The notes under the pieces: model-generated
Told to the model about the DNA's origin: nothing
The model's database searches: none
Seen by the model: only the letters and a program-made list of their open reading frames with translations
Program-made: the position numbers and the translations under genes
Shown here: piece after piece, positions 4,690 through 20,502 of the stretch
Layout: every line of letters begins with the position of its first letter
Numbering within the stretch: the stretch's first letter is position 1
Assembly: GCA_011600865.1 (NCBI GenBank)
Contig: GCA_011600865.1_4890.1
Length of the DNA stretch: 52,276 nucleotides
Strand: one strand, 5' to 3'
Source of the DNA: Escherichia coli
GTDB taxonomy: Bacteria > Pseudomonadota > Gammaproteobacteria > Enterobacterales > Enterobacteriaceae

Positions 4690-4992
4690 ATGGGCAATAA
4701 GCAGATGCATGTTATGTTTATGGGCAATCCTGGTCCGCATGACAAATGGCTGTTTGACAAGTTCAAAGAAAGTCTGATAGGCAAAGAGCTGGTTATTGAC
4801 TTTACTCCTGTTGAGAAAAGAGCGGCTGAAGTCTTTGGCTGTACAGGTAGTGCCCTCAGACCAGACTTTATCGTGGCCGACGATATTGTGGATAAGCCAA
4901 CAAAGAAAGAAGTCGGTACATATGCGGCCATGTTCGGCGTACCAAAGAAAACATATACCCCTCCACACAAACGTAAAGGTAAACGTAAATGA
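4690..4992 (+). CDS. Hypothetical protein
   Basis: 100 aa ORF with a basic C-terminus (KRKGKRK); start overlaps the next gene's start region. Confidence 0.5.
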   Translation: MGNKQMHVMFMGNPGPHDKWLFDKFKESLIGKELVIDFTPVEKRAAEVFGCTGSALRPDFIVADDIVDKPTKKEVGTYAAMFGVPKKTYTPPHKRKGKRK

Positions 4993-10089: not shown

Positions 10090-11760
10090 ATGGCTTTTGA
10101 AGCTCGCTGGTATCAACAAGAAGCGGTCACGGCTTGGTGGTCGTACTTCAATTCTTATAGTGGTAATCCACTTATTGTCATGCCAACAGGTTCAGGTAAA
10201 TCACCTGTGCTTGGTATGTTGATGAAGGATATTCTTACCAGCTATCCCCGTCAGCGCATTCTTATATTGACACACGTCAAGGAGCTGGTAGAACAAGACG
10301 CCAGAGCGATTGTTCGCCACTGGCCACAAGCACCAGTATCAATCTACTCTTCAGGCGCAGGACACAAAGACTTTTCAGGTCGTATCGTTGTAGCGTCAGT
10401 ACAGTCGATTATTAAGAACCTGGAAGAAGCAGGTAAGTTCAATCTTATATTCATTGACGAAGCCCATCTCGTTCCTGAGAAGTCTGAAACAACATACCGT
10501 AAGGTTATTGCTCATTTCAAAGAGCTTAATCCTAAGGTAAAGGTAACAGGTCTTACAGCAACTCCGTACCGCCTGGCAGGTGGTCACTTACTTGACTGCG
10601 GTATATTTACCGACATCTGCTATGACCTTACAACACCTGACGCATTCACCAGACTGGTAAATGAAGGCTTCCTGTCTCGCCTGGTCAACAAGAAAGTGTT
10701 AACCAAGATTGACACCAGCAATGTTGGCGAAAGGATGGGTGACTACATACCGTCAGAGCTTGAGAAGGTAGCCAACCAACACAGCATAACAGTTGCGGCC
10801 ATCAGGGAGATGATGCACTACGGTAAAGACAGGAGTCACGTCCTTGTATTCGCCACAAGTGTTGAACACGCCCACAACGTGGCTGACGAGTTTAATTTAC
10901 GCGGATGGCAAACTGTTGTTGTACACGGCGGTCTTACAAAGAAAGAACGTGAAGCGACACTGGAAGAGTTTACAAGCGGACGAGCACGGGTATGTGTAAA
11001 CGTAAACGTACTTACAACAGGATTTGACTATCCTGAAATTGATATGCTCGGTATCTTGCGCCCGTCCACGTCTGTTGCTTTGTGGGTGCAGATACTCGGC
11101 CGAGGATTACGTACAGCGCCTGGTAAGCATGACTGTCTTGTCATGGACTTTACATCTAATACCATTGACCTTGGTCCTATCGACGACCCGGCAGTTCCGC
11201 CACGTCTTGGTAAGAAGAAAAAGAAACGGTCAGAGAAAACACCTGGTGGTAAAGAGTGCCCTGTCTGCCACCAGGTAAGTGGTTATGCCGCCCGTACATG
11301 TAAGCATCCGGCTAAAGGAAGTACGCCGGACGAGAATGGTGTATATCCGATGTGCGGTCATGAATTTGAGTTTACAGTTAACGGACCTGCTATTGCCTTC
11401 ACTTCATCAGAAGAAGAGGTAATGACCAACGGTCAGCTTCGTGTTGTGGATAAGGATGTTACGCTGGTAAACTATTCTTTATTCCAGAAGCAGGGACGGC
11501 CTGACAGTATAAAGGTTGTGTACTACTCAAACCTGGAAGTGTATACAACATGGGTAAATATAGAGGCCCATGGTAATGCTAAGCAAATGGCAGATGCCTG
11601 GTGGCGTAATGCTGCAGGAACCGAACCGCCTGAAACATGCGACGAGTTTATTCGCCGTAAGGGTGAGCTGGCTATTCCTAAGCGCATAAAGGTATGGATT
11701 AAACGACCTTACCCACAAATCATGAACTACGATTGGGGGAATGGCTATGGCGCTCGATGA
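10090..11760 (+). CDS. Superfamily 2 DEAH-box DNA helicase with a C-terminal zinc-ribbon-like domain
   Basis: Walker A PTGSGKS and motif II FIDEAH; C-terminal region has Cys/His pairs (CPVCHQ, CKHP, MCGHE). Confidence 0.85.
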   Translation: MAFEARWYQQEAVTAWWSYFNSYSGNPLIVMPTGSGKSPVLGMLMKDILTSYPRQRILILTHVKELVEQDARAIVRHWPQAPVSIYSSGAGHKDFSGRIVVASVQSIIKNLEEAGKFNLIFIDEAHLVPEKSETTYRKVIAHFKELNPKVKVTGLTATPYRLAGGHLLDCGIFTDICYDLTTPDAFTRLVNEGFLSRLVNKKVLTKIDTSNVGERMGDYIPSELEKVANQHSITVAAIREMMHYGKDRSHVLVFATSVEHAHNVADEFNLRGWQTVVVHGGLTKKEREATLEEFTSGRARVCVNVNVLTTGFDYPEIDMLGILRPSTSVALWVQILGRGLRTAPGKHDCLVMDFTSNTIDLGPIDDPAVPPRLGKKKKKRSEKTPGGKECPVCHQVSGYAARTCKHPAKGSTPDENGVYPMCGHEFEFTVNGPAIAFTSSEEEVMTNGQLRVVDKDVTLVNYSLFQKQGRPDSIKVVYYSNLEVYTTWVNIEAHGNAKQMADAWWRNAAGTEPPETCDEFIRRKGELAIPKRIKVWIKRPYPQIMNYDWGNGYGAR

Positions 11761-11997: not shown

Positions 11998-12026
11998 TTT
12001 ACACACTCTTTTAAATGACGTATATT
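11998..12026 (+). promoter_or_regulatory. Sigma70-like promoter
   Basis: TTTACA (11998-12003), 17 nt spacer, TATATT (12021-12026). Confidence 0.5.
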
Positions 12027-12074
12027 AACTCACGTAACGAACAAACATTAAGCCCTGTAGACGAGGAAAAAATT

Positions 12075-12542
12075 ATGAGTGAGAAACTGACTTTTGTGAC
12101 TGGTAAAGAAGAAGTTAACGGCGTACTGTACCCAGCAGCAGGTACTGGCGCACGTTACGTATGGGACCTGGCTGACAAAGCCCACGAAGAAGGCAAGTCC
12201 AGCTCTGACGTTATGGACGAAGTTGTTGCTACTACCGAAATGTCCCGTGGCACTGTTTCTTCTCAGCTGACCTACTGGCGTAAAGCCACTGGTAAGGTTC
12301 TGGCTAAGCGCGTTGATACCGCTAAAGCAGAACGCGATGCTGCTAAAGCCGCTGAAAAACAGCGTAAAGCTGAAGAGCGTGCACGCATCAAAGCTGAAAA
12401 AGCCGAAGCGAAAGCTGCTGAGCAGATTCGCAAAGCTGAAGAGAAAGCTGAAAAAGCTCGCCAGAAAGCAGAAGCTGCTAAAGCTGAAGCCGCTAAACTG
12501 GCTGGCGCGATCGAAGGCGACAACGAAGAAGTCGCTGAATAA
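12075..12542 (+). CDS. Hypothetical protein with a Lys/Ala/Glu-rich repetitive C-terminal tail
   Basis: ATG at 12075 with GAGGAAAA RBS; the C-terminal 70 residues are (AEKA/KAE)n low complexity. Confidence 0.6.
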   Translation: MSEKLTFVTGKEEVNGVLYPAAGTGARYVWDLADKAHEEGKSSSDVMDEVVATTEMSRGTVSSQLTYWRKATGKVLAKRVDTAKAERDAAKAAEKQRKAEERARIKAEKAEAKAAEQIRKAEEKAEKARQKAEAAKAEAAKLAGAIEGDNEEVAE

Positions 12543-12558
12543 TAGCGCTGAAATGAAC

Positions 12559-12576
12559 GCACCTCTACGGAGGTGC
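12559..12576 (+). terminator. Terminator-like hairpin
   Basis: gcacctc / gaggtgc stem with a tacg tetraloop after the stop at 12542; no strong U-tract. Confidence 0.35.
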
Positions 12577-12787
12577 ATTCAATGGACATCCTTACATCTC
12601 TCTTCTTATCAACAATCAATTAAGCCTGGTGTGTTGAAACAGTGAGGGTGTCCAGTGAATGCAGTTCAATTCTGCTCGCTGACCGAGATTTGGTAAAAGC
12701 CGTGATGTGTGAGGTTCGATTCCTCCGACGCTGAAAAGGGTATTGGCTCGCTACCTTGACCCCAGGCGCCTGGTGTAGACGGCGGTC

Positions 12788-13059
12788 ACAATTTTAGTTG
12801 TGGTGTTTTGGCGTATCTTTTTGACACCCGTCGGGTGCAGGTTATCCACAGTAACTCAGGTGCTAAGACACCACAACTAAGGTTGTACTCGCTGTGTGCT
12901 TTTGCCACTACAACTGTGTGATAAGTGCAACGCTATATACTTTTCATGTGGTAAGAGCACACAGCAAGTAACGCATATGTGATTGGCTACTTGACGGTAC
13001 CTCCTTTCTGACTCGTCGCGGGGATTAAGTCGGTCAGTCCTTTAGCCAATCTCATATGC
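12788..13059 (+). ncRNA. Candidate structured noncoding RNA (function unknown)
   Basis: No credible ORF on either strand across 12577-13111. Two long inverted repeats: 12788-12805 / 12869-12886 (18 bp with two positions that pair only as G-U on the plus-strand transcript) and 12973-12989 / 13043-13059 (17 bp, one mismatch). Closed by the strong terminator at 13112-13146. Confidence 0.3.
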
Positions 13060-13111
13060 GCTGCCCGGTTGCATAACTGCGATTCCTTGTATCTCCTTAC
13101 GCCACCCTGCC

Positions 13112-13146
13112 AAAAGGACCAGTTAACGCTGGTCCTTTTTATTTTA
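13112..13146 (+). terminator. Strong intrinsic terminator
   Basis: Perfect 10 bp stem aaaggaccag / ctggtccttt with loop ttaacg, followed by a T-run. Confidence 0.75.
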
Positions 13147-13166
13147 CCCGAAGCATAAAAAGTGCT

Positions 13167-13194
13167 TTACCACTAGAGAGTGATGTGGTATAAT
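13167..13194 (+). promoter_or_regulatory. Sigma70-like extended -10 promoter
   Basis: TTTACC (13167-13172), 16 nt spacer, TGGTATAAT (TATAAT at 13189-13194). Confidence 0.5.
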
Positions 13195-13220
13195 AAGTTA
13201 TCTTTTAGAGGAGAGATACA

Positions 13221-13619
13221 ATGAATCTACAACGTGTCGCTGAAGCTTATTATAGAATTTGGGTACTTCGTCTTGAAGGTCAAATTGACTACGTAAACAC
13301 TGTCGGTCGTGAAGACTACCTGCCTGCATCCTCTTTCCATGAGGTATGCAACCTTGCTCAAACACTCGAGCATGAATTTGATAAGGTTAAATTTACACGC
13401 GAAGCGCAAAATAACTTTATCAAATTTGAAACAACCATGCGTTGCAAGTTCCCGTTTATCAAGCGTATATCTCGTACCGGCCTTTTCATTGTCCCCTTTC
13501 CTGTGGGTAAAGACCGTTGGGACGTATTAGAGAAGGCCCGACATATAATCTGGTCTACTGAAACAAAACGTAAGTTTATCGAAACTGTTTGTAAGGAGTT
13601 AAGAAATGCGATTCAGTAA
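13221..13619 (+). CDS. Hypothetical protein
   Basis: 132 aa ORF with GGAGAG RBS; overlaps the start of the next gene. Confidence 0.6.
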   Translation: MNLQRVAEAYYRIWVLRLEGQIDYVNTVGREDYLPASSFHEVCNLAQTLEHEFDKVKFTREAQNNFIKFETTMRCKFPFIKRISRTGLFIVPFPVGKDRWDVLEKARHIIWSTETKRKFIETVCKELRNAIQ

Positions 13620-16109: not shown

Positions 16110-18076
16110 TGAGCTTTTTATTCGATAGCTTTGAAGGTGCAAAGAATGTTAAACCTATCAGCCGTCCTATACCATACGTCAGGGATACTGGATGGCGGCC
16201 GCGCGCGCATTACCCGGATTTGTCTTCTGCGAAGATTATCGGTCTTGACTGTGAAACATACGACCCAGGGATGGATACAAATGGTAGTGGTTGGGCCAGG
16301 AGGGAAGGTCATATCGTTGGAGTTAGTATCGCTACGGACAATGGCTTCAAGGCTTACTACCCAATCAGACACGAGCTCGGCGAAGAGGATAACCTTCCAG
16401 CTGAGGAAGTACTTGGTTGGCTTCGGCGCGAACTCTCGCGACCTAACCAAGTTAAAGTCGGTGCTAACATCACATATGACTTGGGCTGGCTTGCAGCAGA
16501 AGGCGTGGAAGTCAAAGGATTGTGCATGGATGTACAATTCGCGGAAGCATTACTCGACCCAGGCGCGCGTGTTGCACTTGAAGGACTTGGACGAAAATAT
16601 GTAGGCGAAGGTAAAGACTCAGCCGAGATGTACCAATGGATTTCAGATGCTTATGGATGTAAGCCAACAGGTGAAGCCAGAAAGTACATCTACAAAACGC
16701 CTCCTCGTCTTGTGGGTTACTACGCTGAATCTGACGCCGACTTACCAATACACATTATCAAAGCCCAGTGGCCTTTGTTAAGTCGCTGGTGTTTAACAGA
16801 CGTATTCTATATGGAGTGCAAGCTCATTCCATTAATGCTTAAGATGCGTTTTGCAGGTGTGCGTGTTGACCTTGACAAAGCCAAAGAGGCTGATGATACG
16901 CTTAGCGCTGAAATAAGGAAAATGCACCAGCAGATTAAAGACCAGATTGGCTTTAATATTAACGTTAACTCAGGTCCTGATTTAGCACTTGCATTTGACC
17001 ATTTAGGTCTGGAGTACTTCAAAACAGCGGCGGGTAATCCGTCGTTTACGGCAGACTTCTTAGCAGGTTTGCACCATCCGTTCGCGGAACTGGTGTCTGA
17101 GATTAAGTCTTATGAGAAAATCCAGTCCACGTTTATTCGTGGCTATATATTGGGGATGAATACAAATGGCTTCCTTCACGGTCAATTCCATCAAATGCGC
17201 GGTGATGACGGTGGAACCGTTAGTGGTCGGTTTAGCTCATCTGACCCTAATCTGCAGAATATACCGTCTCGACACAAAATACTGGGACCACTCCTTCGTG
17301 CTTGTTTCGTACCGGACGTCGGACACAGATGGGGATCAGCAGACTACGCCCAAATTGAATATAGATTCATGGCGCATTTTGCAGTCGGCCCGGGCGCTGA
17401 TGAGTTACGAGCAATTTTCGCGGCTAACCCGGAAGCAGATTACCACAATGTTATGGTCGATATTATCAAGGAAGCATCAGGTCACGTTATAGAGCGTAAA
17501 CCGGCTAAGACCATCAACTTTGGTTTGTTATACGGCATGATGCTTAATGCTCTTGCCCGTAAGTTAGCAATGACGCCTGAAGAAGCAGAACCTGTTCTGA
17601 AGGCGTATCATCAGGGTGCGCCATTTATCGGCGCTACCATGAAGCACTACGAGGATTTATGCTATAGCCAGGGGTACGTAGAAACCTTTATGGGCCGGAA
17701 GACATGGTTCAACAAATGGGTTCCAAAGCGTGGTGGATTCGGTAAGATGCCTTTGCCATTTGAAGAAGCACGTCAGGAGTACGGTCCGAACATTAAACTG
17801 GCAGACACCCACAAGGCAATCAACCGAGTGCTGCAAGGGTCGTCAGCGGACCAGATGAAGTCTGCAATGCTGAAAGGATATGAAGACGGTTACTTCGACG
17901 TGATTGGCGTACCTCGCCTGACGGTACACGATGAGCTTAACTTCTCTCTACCAGCTGGTAAGCAAGCAGAAGATGGATTCTATGATTTCGTACGGGTCAT
18001 GGAAACTGTGCTACCGCTTCGTGTACCTGTTCTTACTGATGCTAAGATAGAAAGTAACTGGGCAGAGGCACACTAA
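16109..18076 (+). CDS. Family A DNA polymerase with 3'-5' exonuclease domain
   Basis: Exo I motif LDCETYD; polymerase motif A DYAQIEYR, motif B RKPAKTINFGLLYGM and motif C VHDE. Confidence 0.92.
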   Translation: MSFLFDSFEGAKNVKPISRPIPYVRDTGWRPRAHYPDLSSAKIIGLDCETYDPGMDTNGSGWARREGHIVGVSIATDNGFKAYYPIRHELGEEDNLPAEEVLGWLRRELSRPNQVKVGANITYDLGWLAAEGVEVKGLCMDVQFAEALLDPGARVALEGLGRKYVGEGKDSAEMYQWISDAYGCKPTGEARKYIYKTPPRLVGYYAESDADLPIHIIKAQWPLLSRWCLTDVFYMECKLIPLMLKMRFAGVRVDLDKAKEADDTLSAEIRKMHQQIKDQIGFNINVNSGPDLALAFDHLGLEYFKTAAGNPSFTADFLAGLHHPFAELVSEIKSYEKIQSTFIRGYILGMNTNGFLHGQFHQMRGDDGGTVSGRFSSSDPNLQNIPSRHKILGPLLRACFVPDVGHRWGSADYAQIEYRFMAHFAVGPGADELRAIFAANPEADYHNVMVDIIKEASGHVIERKPAKTINFGLLYGMMLNALARKLAMTPEEAEPVLKAYHQGAPFIGATMKHYEDLCYSQGYVETFMGRKTWFNKWVPKRGGFGKMPLPFEEARQEYGPNIKLADTHKAINRVLQGSSADQMKSAMLKGYEDGYFDVIGVPRLTVHDELNFSLPAGKQAEDGFYDFVRVMETVLPLRVPVLTDAKIESNWAEAH

Positions 18077-19998: not shown

Positions 19999-20502
19999 TT
20001 ATGGTCGTACAGGCCAGTCAATATGCGGCGCATCTGACATTACAAGCAACATCAAATCAGCACGGAATTTATGCAAAGCGATGATACGTTCTTCATCCTC
20101 TTCAGTGTCGAGTTGCTCTTCAACCCAAGCCTGTTCTTCCTGCAGGCGCTCTTCTGCAATTGCTAACTGCAGTTCCGAGTGCTTAACGAATTTGCCATTA
20201 ACGTAAGACCACTCGTAATAGCAATCCGCAAACTTATCAGCAGGCACAGAGTCAACAATATGCAAATCACAGTTAACAGGAAACAGCAACGTAGGATTGT
20301 TAGAATACGCCGCCACAGCATTGTACTTATCCACAACAATATAGTGAACCAGCTCTTTATTCTTAGCCAGCTCTTTAGCCAACTTGCGCCAGTCATTACC
20401 GTTGTTATCCTTGATGAATACAACGCCTTGCTTAATCAGCGGAAGTGTCTCCGCCGTCCTTTGTGGGTTGTATTCTGTAAAGTTGAAAAATGACAGTTGC
20501 AT
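19999..20502 (-). CDS. Tail fiber assembly protein (Tfa chaperone), paralog 2
   Basis: 167 aa; clear paralog of the adjacent 180 aa protein (FFNFTEYNPQ vs FRNFTMYHPE; NDWRKLAKEL vs RDWYNLAKEL); Tfa-like C-terminus ending DWPVRP. Confidence 0.65.
   Translation of the reverse strand: MQLSFFNFTEYNPQRTAETLPLIKQGVVFIKDNNGNDWRKLAKELAKNKELVHYIVVDKYNAVAAYSNNPTLLFPVNCDLHIVDSVPADKFADCYYEWSYVNGKFVKHSELQLAIAEERLQEEQAWVEEQLDTEEDEERIIALHKFRADLMLLVMSDAPHIDWPVRP

What the first reader, a model, noticed from the sequence alone, without database searches (positions are those of the whole stretch)
12577..13146. 535 bp ORF-free segment with two long inverted repeats, a 13 bp palindrome and a strong terminator: candidate structured RNA
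No credible ORF spans 12577-13111 on either strand, unusual in an otherwise tightly packed genome. It holds an 18 bp inverted repeat (12788-12805 / 12869-12886) in which two positions pair only as G-U on the plus-strand transcript, and a 17 bp repeat with one mismatch (12973-12989 / 13043-13059). The G-U requirement favours a folded plus-strand RNA over a DNA cruciform. Inside the first loop is the palindrome CACCCG-T-CGGGTG (12825-12837), a possible protein-binding site. The segment ends at the strongest terminator in the window (13112-13146). A tRNA-like T-loop motif GGTTCGATTCC (12713-12723) is present, but I could not fold a cloverleaf around it.
Basis: seen in the sequence. Interest (0 to 1): 0.6.

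Follow-up and report, generated by a model that had tools for sequence, protein, structure and literature searches.

The report
Phage tRNA-mimic RNA among structured hairpins
The ORF-free stretch is a plus-strand non-coding RNA cassette: a chain of conserved hairpins around a 132-nt tRNA-like small RNA that sits where sister phages carry two real tRNA genes, and that RNA belongs to an apparently undescribed family found in the tRNA gene arrays of unrelated phages.

Summary
Window 12543-13146 has no credible ORF. On the + strand it folds far better than shuffles (z -11.7, against -4.8 for the - strand). It is a back-to-back series of helices: H0, H1, a 132-nt module I call X (12658-12789), H2, H3, H4 and a terminator.

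H0/H1 and H2 are supported by compensatory changes and conserved G·U pairs in related phages.

Relatives use the slot between H1 and the next hairpin in three ways. Some carry X, some carry tRNA-Pro(UGG)+tRNA-Gln(UUG), and some carry nothing.

X is not a tRNA (ARAGORN and Rfam negative). It has two T-arm-like hairpins, closed acceptor-like hairpins and GG loops. This is the permuted T–acceptor–D order known from bacterial YrlA Y RNAs, but X lacks a Ro-binding module and no Ro60-like protein was found among the large ORFs tested.

The X core also occurs in unrelated uncultured phages, usually 2-3 nt after a tRNA gene.

A viable isolate (rivia) has lost most of X and half of H2, so both are accessory.

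The tRNA-elbow mimic or decoy role, and hairpins as processing or stability elements, are inferred, not shown.

The parts
11998..12026 (+). Sigma-70-like promoter (TTTACA-17-TATATT) of the upstream gene. It is the presumed start of the transcript that runs through the non-coding cassette.
   Evidence: The equivalent promoter is annotated in phage BP63. No promoter-like site was found between the gene's stop codon and the terminator.
12015..12542 (+). Upstream gene of unknown function (PHROG 28664). The likely real start is the ATG at 12075. The cassette follows its stop codon directly.
12559..12576 (+). H0: a 7-bp G+C-rich hairpin with a UACG tetraloop, 17 nt after the stop codon.
   Evidence: Helix 1: 99.2% of cells paired and 2 pairs with changes on both sides (A-U / C-G / U-A). 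UACG or UUCG loops occur in several groups.
12577..12660 (+). H1: long hairpin with lower stem 12577-12595/12642-12660. Its apex carries the conserved motif GCCUGGUG (12624-12631).
   Evidence: In the 16 lower-stem pairs tested, 11 have changes on both sides, and a U·G pair is kept in 15 of 17 sequences. The apical motif is present in groups A-D; in groups E and F a related motif sits in the hairpin downstream of the slot.
12658..12789 (+). Module X, the tRNA-mimic small RNA.
- P1, T-arm-like: 12661-12675.
- Closed acceptor-like hairpin CUCG/CGAG: 12675-12687. Its loop UGACC (12680-12684) pairs with GGUCA (12784-12788); this pairing is P0.
- GG loop AUUUGGUAAAA: 12688-12698.
- P4: 12699-12703/12779-12783.
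- P5, a variable stem-loop with the conserved CGCUACC loop: 12729-12768.
- GG segment CCUGGUGUAG: 12769-12778.
   Evidence: In my manual alignment of 7 sequences, 165 of 168 cells are standard pairs and 12 of 24 pairs take two or more standard pair types. A covariance model built only from groups C and D finds X in the window at 59.9 bits, E about 8e-15, full length. A sequence-only model scores 41.0 bits. Homologues occur in unrelated phage contigs.
12788..12886 (+). H2: a 25-bp lower stem (12788-12812/12862-12886) topped by a junction with two small hairpins. H2a is the palindrome at 12825-12837. H2b is 12840-12856, and its loop region contains TTATCCACA (12842-12850).
   Evidence: 6 pairs have changes on both sides, and G·U is invariant at columns 31/92. 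H2 lies before X in group C and after X in groups A and B.
12886..12970 (+). H3: long hairpin with arms 12886-12908/12948-12970 and a GUGUG/CACAC core.
   Evidence: 18-21 contiguous pairs in 4 relatives, whose upper stems differ in sequence. By eye, hairpins with the same core follow the tRNAs in groups E and F.
12972..13060 (+). H4: long hairpin with arms 12972-12989/13043-13060. It is present only in the Rosemountvirus group.
   Evidence: It is absent from ZCSE2, SE4, the KE25 group and SOI901. BP63 changes one pair from U-A to U·G. No covariation test was possible.
13112..13146 (+). Intrinsic terminator: a 12-bp stem, 4-nt loop and T-run, marking the end of the cassette.
   Evidence: It is conserved in every relative, with compensatory changes in the stem (ACCAG/CTGGT becomes CCTGC/ACAGG).
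13166..13194 (+). Promoter of the next gene (TTTACC-17-TATAAT with an extended -10 TG). It marks the downstream edge of the cassette.
   Evidence: It is nearly invariant across the family.

Best explanation
The segment is the untranslated, plus-strand tail of an early transcript. It starts at the promoter near 12000, passes the 155-175-aa gene and ends at the terminator at 13112-13146.

It is built from separate RNA modules placed back to back. Between hairpin H1 and the following hairpins lies a 'cargo slot'. Sister phages fill that slot with tRNA-Pro(UGG)+tRNA-Gln(UUG) or leave it empty. This phage fills it with X, a 132-nt RNA.

X has tRNA parts in a permuted order, repeated twice: a T-arm, then a closed acceptor-like hairpin, then a GG loop that could dock on the T-loop. 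It has no free acceptor end and no anticodon loop. That makes it a mimic of the tRNA body and elbow, not a decoder. It is built like the tRNA-like domain of bacterial YrlA Y RNAs, which are thought to derive from dimeric tRNA transcripts.

Shown here:
- the structures and their covariation;
- the strand;
- the three alternative cargos;
- the family-wide and cross-family conservation of X;
- its dispensability in one viable isolate.

Inferred, not shown:
- X is released from the transcript, with the long 18-25-bp stems acting as RNase III-type processing and 3'-end-protecting elements;
- X acts in trans by binding a host factor that recognises tRNA elbows. Candidates are a tRNA-processing or tRNA-modifying enzyme, or a tRNA-directed defence protein. 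X would then serve as a decoy or recruiter that helps the phage in some hosts.
For: Strand and structure:
- z -11.7 on the + strand against -4.8 on the - strand.
- Covariation in H0/H1 and H2, with conserved G·U pairs.
- Helices abut with 0-1 nt linkers.

Cargo slot:
- tRNA-Pro+tRNA-Gln lie in the syntenic gap in SOI901, L013, L014, L017, L018, L023 and L025.
- X fills the gap in groups A-D.
- Neither is present in L021 and L026.
- X-bearing KE25 and tRNA-bearing SOI901 share 80% identity in the neighbouring protein. That is more than SOI901 shares with other tRNA-bearers, so the cargo has been swapped.

Selection on X:
- The flanking protein is 41% identical between the window and KE25.
- Over the same distance the X core is nearly invariant and its helices change by compensation.
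- A structured model built without groups A and B finds X in them full length and scores 19-25 bits above a sequence-only model. In unrelated phages the gain is 4-21 bits.

X as a discrete unit elsewhere:
- It starts 2-3 nt after tRNA-Ser, tRNA-Thr or tRNA-Phe, or precedes tRNA-Ser, in contigs of 29-124 kb.
- It is followed by T-runs in L029/L040, L031/L036 and L041.
- One subfamily shows clean T / tetraloop hairpin / UGGU-loop hairpin units. The D-like stem covaries: CCAU/AUGG, CCGU/ACGG, CCCU/AGGG.

Topology: the T-then-closed-acceptor-then-D order and the dimeric-tRNA origin model are described for YrlA (PMC4201824; bioRxiv 10.1101/312249).

Possible origin: P1 differs from the sister phages' tRNA-Pro T-arm only by loss of one base pair (GCAG-UUCGAGU-CUGC against GCAGG-UUCGAGU-CCUGC). 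It is followed by GCUGACC, against GCCGACC in the tRNA.
Against: - There is no transcript, processing or binding data of any kind.
- X alone is not thermodynamically unusual (z +0.06 to +1.28). MFE folds recover only part of my comparative model.
- My X alignment was made by hand from about four or five independent lineages. That favours pairing.
- P1 and the CUCG/CGAG hairpin never vary, so they are untested.
- The pseudoknot (P0) rests on one covarying position seen in two lineages.
- The T-loop/GG-loop docking is an analogy, not a result.
- Hairpins H1 and H3 persist in relatives with an empty slot. They must therefore do something other than release cargo.
- H4 has no comparative support.
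- Rivia grows without intact X and H2. Any function is therefore conditional.
Confidence: 0.55

Rival explanations
1. The region is only a cis-acting 3' untranslated structure. The hairpins process and stabilise the upstream mRNA, shield the untranslated RNA (for example from Rho or nucleases) and insulate the next promoter. X is one more structural spacer with no function of its own.
For: - H0, H1, an H3-like hairpin and the terminator persist in relatives whose slot is empty (L021, L026).
- H0 sits directly after the stop codon.
- No internal promoter was predicted.
- Modules are gained, lost and reordered between lineages.
Against: - X recurs with a nearly identical 40-nt core in unrelated phages in quite different gene contexts, inside tRNA arrays or as a unit followed by a T-run.
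- X is held constant while neighbouring proteins fall to about 40% identity.
Confidence: 0.2
2. The region is a DNA-level element, such as a replication origin or DnaA-binding region. The inverted repeats would act as cruciforms or single-strand hairpins.
For: - A perfect DnaA box, TTATCCACA, lies at 12842-12850 in an invariant stretch.
- The window has 4 perfect boxes where about 0.4 are expected, plus a local cluster of near-matches between 11445 and 13984.
- The locus lies among replication and nucleotide-metabolism genes.
Against: - Conserved G·U and U·G pairs and the difference in z-score between strands point to plus-strand RNA.
- The box exists only in lineages that have H2 and is absent from groups D, E and F.
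- Rivia deletes the 5' half of H2, which abolishes the H2 stem, together with most of X, yet is a viable phage. The box itself remains.
- There is no GC-skew turn here.
- Real tRNA genes occupy the same slot in relatives.
Confidence: 0.08
3. X and the T-loop motifs are decaying remnants of the tRNA-Pro/tRNA-Gln pair. They would be pseudogenes with no present function.
For: - Real tRNAs sit at the same place in sister phages.
- P1 resembles the tRNA-Pro T-arm.
- tRNA finders are negative.
- Rivia tolerates the loss.
Against: - Pseudogenes do not keep a nearly invariant core and compensatory helix changes across lineages whose proteins are 40% identical.
- Pseudogenes do not recur in unrelated phages next to intact tRNAs.
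Confidence: 0.07
4. X is an unconventional, permuted pre-tRNA that is processed into a working tRNA.
For: The T-then-acceptor-then-D order is also that of circularly permuted tRNA genes (discussion in bioRxiv 10.1101/312249). X also lies within tRNA arrays.
Against: - The acceptor-like hairpins are closed by stable tetraloops (UUCG, GAAA, GGAA) or by large variable inserts.
- There is no anticodon stem-loop.
- From background knowledge, no bacterial pathway for circular-permuted tRNA maturation is known.
- Rfam's tRNA model and ARAGORN do not match.
Confidence: 0.04
5. The segment encodes one or more small proteins.
For: Some GenBank records annotate 1-4 short 'hypothetical proteins' here.
Against: - ORFs are at most 40 aa.
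- The annotated ones differ in strand and position between records.
- The substitution pattern is helix-compensating.
Confidence: 0.02

Closest known systems
YrlA (Y RNA-like A) of Salmonella Typhimurium and other bacteria: the tRNA-like effector domain of bacterial Y RNAs
   Same: - Both have tRNA parts in permuted order: a T stem-loop 5' of a closed, variable acceptor-like stem-loop, then a D-like GG loop, all closed by a stem that stands in for the anticodon stem.
- Neither has a CCA end or an anticodon loop.
- Both are proposed to derive from dimeric tRNA transcripts.
- Both are sometimes encoded next to tRNAs (PMC4201824; bioRxiv 10.1101/312249).
   Different: - X has no 5'/3' Ro60-binding stem and no GNCGAAN0-1G motif.
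- No Ro60/TROVE match was found among the 10 large ORFs tested.
- The T- and D-stem sequences differ from the YrlA sequence printed in the paper.
- X has two such units in tandem and a probable pseudoknot.
- Its D-like elements are 3-6-nt GG loops or a single strand, not a 4-bp/7-nt D-arm.
- No Rfam family matches X.
Phage tRNA gene arrays and the stable RNAs of unknown function encoded within them (phage T4 species 1 and 2 RNAs; from memory, not checked here)
   Same: Small, stable-looking non-tRNA RNAs embedded in or beside phage tRNA genes, co-transcribed with them and dependent on host processing.
   Different: There is no detectable sequence similarity. A BLAST of X against 50,697 phage records hits only the Rosemountvirus/Loughboroughvirus family. 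I did not compare structures with the T4 RNAs.
RNase III processing stems (phage T7 early-region sites; rRNA operon stems). From background knowledge.
   Same: Stems of 18-25 bp lie between functional units of one transcript, and a hairpin is left at the 3' end of the upstream mRNA.
   Different: Cleavage is untested. These stems are nearly perfect and carry structured apical domains with conserved motifs, which classical T7 sites lack.
tRNA-like element plus hairpin transcripts of murine gammaherpesvirus 68, and MALAT1-mascRNA. From memory.
   Same: A tRNA-like structure next to long hairpins or a long RNA, where the tRNA-like fold recruits tRNA-processing enzymes to cut the transcript.
   Different: Those are eukaryotic systems with different enzymes, and their tRNA-like parts have the normal order with an open acceptor stem. 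This is an analogy only.
Large ornate phage-associated RNAs found near tRNAs (ROOL, GOLLD)
   Same: A structured non-coding region of several hundred nucleotides in a phage, associated with tRNA genes.
   Different: Nothing in Rfam 15, whatever its large-RNA families, reached E<=10 on this region. The region is a string of exchangeable modules, not one conserved fold.

Membership tests
tRNA | Cloverleaf with an open 7-bp acceptor stem, D-arm, anticodon arm and T-arm, detectable by tRNA finders | tested here: not met
   ARAGORN finds 0 genes in the window and in the X-bearing relatives. Rfam RF00005 gives no match at E<=10 on 12400-13300. The same tools find the real tRNAs in sister phages.
tmRNA | tRNA-like domain formed by the 5' and 3' ends, with a tag reading frame and pseudoknots | tested here: not met
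   ARAGORN, which includes permuted tmRNA, finds nothing. Rfam gives nothing at the gathering threshold or at E<=10.
YrlA / bacterial Y RNA | T stem-loop 5' of a closed acceptor-like stem-loop 5' of a D-like GG loop, enclosed by a stem | tested here: met
   In the window the order is P4 - P3 (T) - P5 - GG segment - P4'. In the L049-type relatives it is a clean T / tetraloop hairpin / UGGU hairpin closed by P0. The feature is defined in PMC4201824 and bioRxiv 10.1101/312249.
YrlA / bacterial Y RNA | Ro60/Rsr-binding module: a stem formed by the 5' and 3' ends, with GNCGAAN0-1G near the 5' end | tested here: not met
   X begins with the T-arm-like P1, and no 5' strand pairs with the 3' end. The nearest string, GACCGAG, does not fit the motif (sequence).
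YrlA / bacterial Y RNA | Encoded within a few kb of, and on the same strand as, a Ro60 (TROVE) gene | tested here: not met
   Ten of the 13 ORFs of 330 aa or more gave no TROVE match in Pfam. The other three were not scanned here; two of them correspond to the helicase and DNA polymerase annotated in BP63. Smaller ORFs were not scanned, and the host genome was not examined.
YrlA / bacterial Y RNA | tRNA-type tertiary contacts (T-loop/GG docking, Levitt pair, UA linker) and modification by TruB or DusA | not testable with these tools
   Only the motifs are present: UUCRANY or UUNGANU loops, and GG in each D-like element. No 3D or modification data exist.
RNase III processing site | About two turns (20 bp or more) of double-stranded RNA within a transcript | tested here: met
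   Lower stems of about 19-25 bp in H1, H2 and H3, and 18 bp in H4.
RNase III processing site | Cleavage by RNase III in vivo or in vitro | not testable with these tools
   No data.
Intrinsic terminator | G+C-rich hairpin followed directly by a U-run, on the transcribed strand | tested here: met
   13112-13139 has 12 pairs and a 4-nt loop, followed by TATTTTA. It is conserved with compensatory stem changes.
DnaA-dependent replication origin | Cluster of DnaA boxes next to an A+T-rich unwinding element, conserved among relatives | tested here: not met
   There is one perfect and one near-perfect box in the segment. The box is absent from groups D, E and F. GC content here is 0.45-0.48, with no skew turn. 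The structure around it is disrupted in viable phage rivia.
Any curated Rfam family, whichever large structured RNAs, ribozymes and sRNAs it holds | Match to a covariance model | tested here: not met
   No match at the gathering threshold in the whole window. Only chance-level hairpin or terminator matches at E<=10. Nothing on X in five other X-bearing loci.

The most novel reading that the evidence does not exclude
X defines a new, Ro-independent family of phage tRNA-elbow mimics. They are carried as 'extra members' of phage tRNA arrays and are interchangeable with real tRNA pairs at one genomic slot. They would act in trans on a conserved host tRNA-recognising factor, for instance as decoys against tRNA-directed immunity or as hijackers of tRNA-processing enzymes. 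The Rosemountvirus locus and its sister phages, carrying a tRNA dimer, X or nothing between the same hairpins, would then be a natural snapshot of how permuted tRNA mimics such as Y RNAs arise from dimeric tRNAs.
Probability: 0.3. Interest if true: 0.8.

Novelty: new variant of a known kind. Interest (0 to 1): 0.6.

Why it matters
- Phage tRNA genes are now seen as counter-measures to host tRNA-cleaving defences. A conserved RNA that mimics the tRNA body but cannot decode, and that travels with those tRNA genes, would point to another layer of that conflict, or to a new way of recruiting host tRNA enzymes.
- It would extend the YrlA type of permuted tRNA mimic beyond Ro60 systems.
- It would give the dimeric-tRNA origin model a concrete test case.
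- This phage family is described in the literature as having no tRNA genes (PMC7432712, PMC9343928). Its largest non-coding region has been left unannotated or filled with spurious small ORFs.
- Members of the family are being developed for Salmonella and E. coli biocontrol, so an accessory host-interaction RNA is relevant to host range.

Tried and rejected
- tRNA and tmRNA: ARAGORN and Rfam were negative.
- Rfam at a permissive threshold gave only generic hairpin hits (mir-957, E 0.029) and terminator look-alikes. I rejected these as chance.
- Hammerhead-like reading of CUGACCGAG: rejected by eye. There is an extra C and no GAAA/stem III, and Rfam is negative.
- Reading X as 'T-arm plus acceptor 3' strand' of a normal or permuted tRNA: no complementary 5' strand was found.
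- Origin of replication or DnaA site: considered because of the perfect DnaA box, and down-weighted.
- Coding potential: rejected.
- The second covariance-model hit in the window (17507-17611; 19 bits) lies inside the DNA polymerase gene at the KTINFGLLYG motif. It is chance.
- Two of the three genome contigs matches to the 20-mer (Planctomycetota MAGs) lack the rest of X and are chance. The third is a Rosemountvirus contig binned into a Bacillota MAG.
- A sigma-70 promoter or simple terminator scan around stand-alone X copies found nothing convincing. 'Own promoter' is therefore not claimed; only the T-runs read in the sequence are.
- Flanking proteins gave only PHROGs of unknown function.
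- The YrlA supplementary alignments are not held. Comparison with YrlA therefore rests on the one printed sequence and the papers' descriptions.
- MAFFT and the covariance model mis-register P3 in the window because of a 5-6-nt insertion and a U·C mismatch. I aligned X by hand.
- An automatic extraction of H3 from groups E and F failed. For those groups H3 was compared by eye only.
Full report
**What is there**

The window is a phage of the Rosemountvirus type: 56 GenBank phage records match the segment at 80-99% identity.

The segment lies between a gene of unknown function that ends at 12542 and a gene that starts at 13221. Both are on the + strand, within the helicase / nucleotide-metabolism / DNA polymerase block.

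- ORFs inside the segment are at most 40 aa.
- ARAGORN finds no tRNA or tmRNA in the whole window.
- Rfam finds nothing at gathering thresholds. At E<=10 it finds only generic hairpin or terminator look-alikes.
- The + strand RNA folds at -238.6 kcal/mol, against -176.4 +/- 5.3 for shuffles (z -11.7). The - strand gives z -4.8.
It also shows a short hairpin just after the stop codon and the terminator.

Read together, the segment is a chain of helices with 0-1 nt between neighbours:

- H0, 12559-12576
- H1, 12577-12660
- a 132-nt module I call X, 12658-12789
- H2, 12788-12886
- H3, 12886-12970
- H4, 12972-13060
- the terminator, 13112-13146

A promoter-like site precedes the upstream gene (11998-12026) and another follows the terminator (13166-13194). 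None lies inside the segment. The segment is therefore most simply the tail of the upstream gene's transcript. This is an inference.

**Relatives**

I collected the syntenic gap from 22 further genomes or contigs. Sources were GenBank relatives, IMG/VR and metagenome loci found through the downstream protein, and Logan assemblies reached through homologues of that protein. They fall into six groups:

| Group | Members | Content of the slot |
|---|---|---|
| A | Rosemountvirus, including the window | X |
| B | Loughboroughvirus | X |
| C | KE25, fHy-Eco03 and similar | X |
| D | L012, L019, L020, L024 | X |
| E | Erwinia phage SOI901, L013, L014, L017, L018, L023, L025 | tRNA-Pro(UGG) followed by tRNA-Gln(UUG), at exactly the place of X |
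| F | L021, L026 | neither: H0, H1, an H3-like hairpin, a short conserved stretch, then the terminator |

X and the tRNA pair never occur together.

Judged by the neighbouring 132-aa protein, X-bearing KE25 is 80% identical to tRNA-bearing SOI901. That is closer than SOI901 is to other tRNA-bearers (70-73%). Groups A and B are only about 40% identical to all the rest. The cargo between the hairpins has therefore been exchanged more than once.

Modules also move or come and go:

- H2 lies before X in group C and after it in groups A and B.
- H4 exists only in group A.
- L023 has an extra 180 nt or so.

**The hairpins are RNA structures on the + strand**

H0 and H1 (17 sequences):

- The 7 pairs of H0 and the 16 lower pairs of H1 are 96.7% paired, against 39-50% when partners are slid by 1-3 columns.
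- 13 of the 23 pairs change on both sides.
- No shuffle reached any of the five measures.
- One U·G pair is kept in 15 of 17 sequences.

H2 (8 sequences):

- The 26 pairs counted (the 22-pair lower stem plus 4 invariant H2b pairs) are 98.6% paired, against 32-51% for slid partners.
- 6 pairs, all in the lower stem, change on both sides between groups A/B and C.
- One G·U pair is invariant.

The other elements:

- The 13-bp palindrome is the small hairpin H2a. Relatives keep it as CATCC-TCGCG-GGATG, a compensatory C-G to U-A change.
- H3 has 18-21 contiguous pairs in four relatives whose upper stems differ. By eye it shares a GUGUG/CACAC core with the hairpin that follows the tRNAs in groups E and F.
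- H4 cannot be tested comparatively.

**Module X**

All X copies share a nearly invariant 5' part: AAUGCAG-UUCRANU-CUGC-UCGCUGRCCGAG-AUU(N)GGUAAA. My comparative model for groups A-D has these parts:

- P1 is a T-arm-like hairpin with a 4-bp stem and a 7-nt UUCRANY loop.
- A short hairpin, CUCG/CGAG, follows. Its loop UGRCC pairs with GGYCA at the 3' end of X; I call this pairing P0.
- A GG loop comes next.
- P4 closes a three-way junction.
- In the junction, P3 is a second T-arm-like hairpin.
- P5 is a variable stem-loop with the conserved loop CGCUACC.
- A single-stranded GG segment lies between P5 and P4.

In a hand alignment of seven sequences, 165 of 168 cells are standard pairs. Twelve of 24 pairs take two or more standard pair types. 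Examples:

- P4: GCCGU/ACGGC, GCCAU/AUGGC, GCCCU/AGGGC, GUUGU/ACAAC, GCUAU/AUAGC.
- P3: GAGG/CCUC, CUGGG/CCCGG, GCCUG/CAGGC, ACCGG/CCGGU.

As a less hand-made test, I built a covariance model from groups C and D only.

- It finds X full length in groups A and B at 58-64 bits.
- A sequence-only model built from the same alignment scores 38-41 bits on the window, ZCSE2 and SE4.

**Cautions on the X model**

- X alone is not more stable than shuffles (z +0.06 to +1.28), and MFE folds recover only parts of the model.
- P1 and CUCG/CGAG never vary, so they are untested.
- P0 rests on one covarying position, although in two separate lineages.

**X outside this phage family**

Exact searches for the core in IMG/VR found X in uncultured phage contigs of 5-124 kb that show no other relation to this family. 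Most contigs longer than 20 kb differ from its roughly 52 kb in length, at 29-124 kb. The structured model confirms these copies at 31-62 bits. It scores 4-21 bits above the sequence-only model, which matches only the 5' core.

Where X sits in these contigs:

- In six contigs it starts 2-3 nt after tRNA-Ser(UGA).
- In one it starts after tRNA-Thr(CGU), and in one after tRNA-Cys/tRNA-Phe.
- In two it directly precedes tRNA-Ser(GCU).
- In L029/L040, L031/L036 and L041 it is followed at once by a run of T.

Where X was not found:

- Among 50,697 GenBank phage records it occurs only in the Rosemountvirus/Loughboroughvirus family.
- Among 5,426 complete E. coli genomes it occurs only on two 52-53-kb 'plasmids' that match this locus at 99% and have the size of this phage's genome.

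One subfamily (L049, L050, L054) shows the design most clearly. After the common 5' part comes a T hairpin, CCCG-UUCGAUU-CGGG. Next is a tetraloop hairpin of variable sequence: GACC-UUCG-GGUU, GCGC-GAAA-GCGU or GCGC-GGAA-GCGU. Last is a hairpin with a UGGU loop whose stem covaries: CCAU/AUGG, CCGU/ACGG, CCCU/AGGG. The whole is closed by P0.

**What X resembles**

A T-arm, then a closed acceptor-like hairpin, then a D-like GG loop, all enclosed by a stem: this is the permuted tRNA-like domain described for bacterial YrlA Y RNAs (PMC4201824; crystal structure paper, bioRxiv 10.1101/312249).

Those authors propose that YrlA arose from dimeric tRNA transcripts. In their model the T-arm comes from the first tRNA, the D-arm from the second and the acceptor-like hairpin from the spacer.

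The present locus fits that idea unusually well:

- Sister phages carry a tRNA dimer in the same slot.
- P1 of X equals the T-arm of their tRNA-Pro minus one base pair.
- P1 is followed by GCUGACC, where the tRNA has GCCGACC(A).

Because the X core is also found in unrelated phages, I cannot say whether X arose here or arrived by exchange.

X is not a YrlA by the family's own criteria:

- It has no Ro-binding stem and no GNCGAAN0-1G motif.
- No TROVE/Ro60 protein was found among the 10 large ORFs tested.
- Its T and D sequences differ from the printed YrlA sequence.
- It has two T/acceptor-like/GG units rather than one.
- No Rfam family matches it.

**How it most likely works**

Shown: a plus-strand structured RNA made of exchangeable modules, and a conserved tRNA-like cargo that cannot decode because it has a closed acceptor and no anticodon loop.

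Inferred:

- The cassette is transcribed with the upstream gene.
- The 18-25-bp stems are cut by RNase III or otherwise serve as processing and protective elements. This leaves H0 as the 3' cap of the mRNA and frees the cargo, which is tRNAs in some phages and X in this one.
- X then binds a host factor that recognises the tRNA elbow.

The near-identity of the 40-nt core across phages from very different settings argues for a conserved, sequence-reading partner. Which one is unknown.

Salmonella phage rivia is a viable isolate with a 145-bp deletion (window 12695-12839) that removes most of X and the 5' half of H2. X and H2 are therefore accessory, as expected for a host-interaction or anti-defence function and not for an essential origin.

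**Rivals**

- *Purely cis-acting untranslated structure.* This explains the hairpins, which persist even when the slot is empty. It does not explain the independent life of X elsewhere.
- *DNA-level origin.* It is suggested by a perfect DnaA box in H2 and by an excess of such boxes in the genome. Against it stand the strand-specific wobble pairs, the absence of the box from three of the six groups, the rivia deletion and the flat GC skew.
- *Decayed tRNA pseudogenes, an unconventional pre-tRNA, and small proteins.* All are unlikely, for the reasons given under each rival.

**Literature**

Papers on this phage family state that it has no tRNA genes. The paper read in full (PMC7432712) does not mention intergenic regions, non-coding RNA or hairpins. 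I found no description of an RNA like X. My search was limited to the held library and to Rfam 15.

**Verdict**

The most interesting part is X. It is a probable new family of phage tRNA mimics with YrlA-like topology that alternates with a real tRNA pair at one locus. All functional statements remain inference until transcripts, processing and partners are measured.

Noticed in passing
window 4887-4895(-), 11445-11453(-), 12842-12850(+), 20327-20335(+): There are four perfect DnaA boxes (TTATCCACA) where about 0.4 are expected. With one-mismatch boxes, six sites cluster between 11445 and 13984. The one at 12842 is in the H2b loop and occurs only in lineages that have H2.
   Followed up: partly
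L045 (Salmonella phage rivia) versus window 12695-12839: A natural 145-bp deletion between GGT microhomologies removes most of X and the 5' half of H2 in a viable isolate.
   Followed up: yes
window 13150-13220 and all relatives: The promoter region of the downstream gene (GCTTTACC..TAGAGAGTGATGTAGTATAAT) is almost invariant across groups whose proteins are about 40% identical. That conservation is more than a plain -35/-10 would need, which suggests an added regulatory site.
   Followed up: no
window 12624-12631 and 12768-12775; L007 about 2371-2390; L021 about 2266-2283: A D-loop-like motif, GCCUGGUG(Y)GUUGGUGUAG, sits in the apex of H1 in groups A-D, but in the apex of the hairpin downstream of the slot in groups E and F. 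A 9-mer copy (GCCUGGUGU) recurs inside X in the window. Its role is unknown.
   Followed up: partly
window 17507-17611: A weak match (19 bits) of the X model lies inside the DNA polymerase gene at the KTINFGLLYG motif. I judged it chance.
   Followed up: yes
GenBank PP583539.1; RefSeq NZ_JBVNBN010000003.1 and NZ_CP067310.1; JAEWER010000021.1 (L042): A record named 'Listeria phage', two E. coli 'plasmids' of 52-53 kb and a contig of a Bacillota MAG all carry this locus at 95-99% identity. They are probably genomes of this phage family filed under other labels.
   Followed up: no
L023 662-845; L028 20-155: L023 has about 180 extra nucleotides between H1 and tRNA-Pro. L028 has a 136-nt stretch that matches Rfam's tRNA model end to end at 37 bits, possibly a tRNA with an insertion.
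   Followed up: no
window 12015-12075: The upstream gene probably starts at the ATG at 12075 rather than 12015. The promoter-like -10 ends at 12026, the PHROG match begins at residue 21, and BP63 annotates the shorter form.
   Followed up: partly
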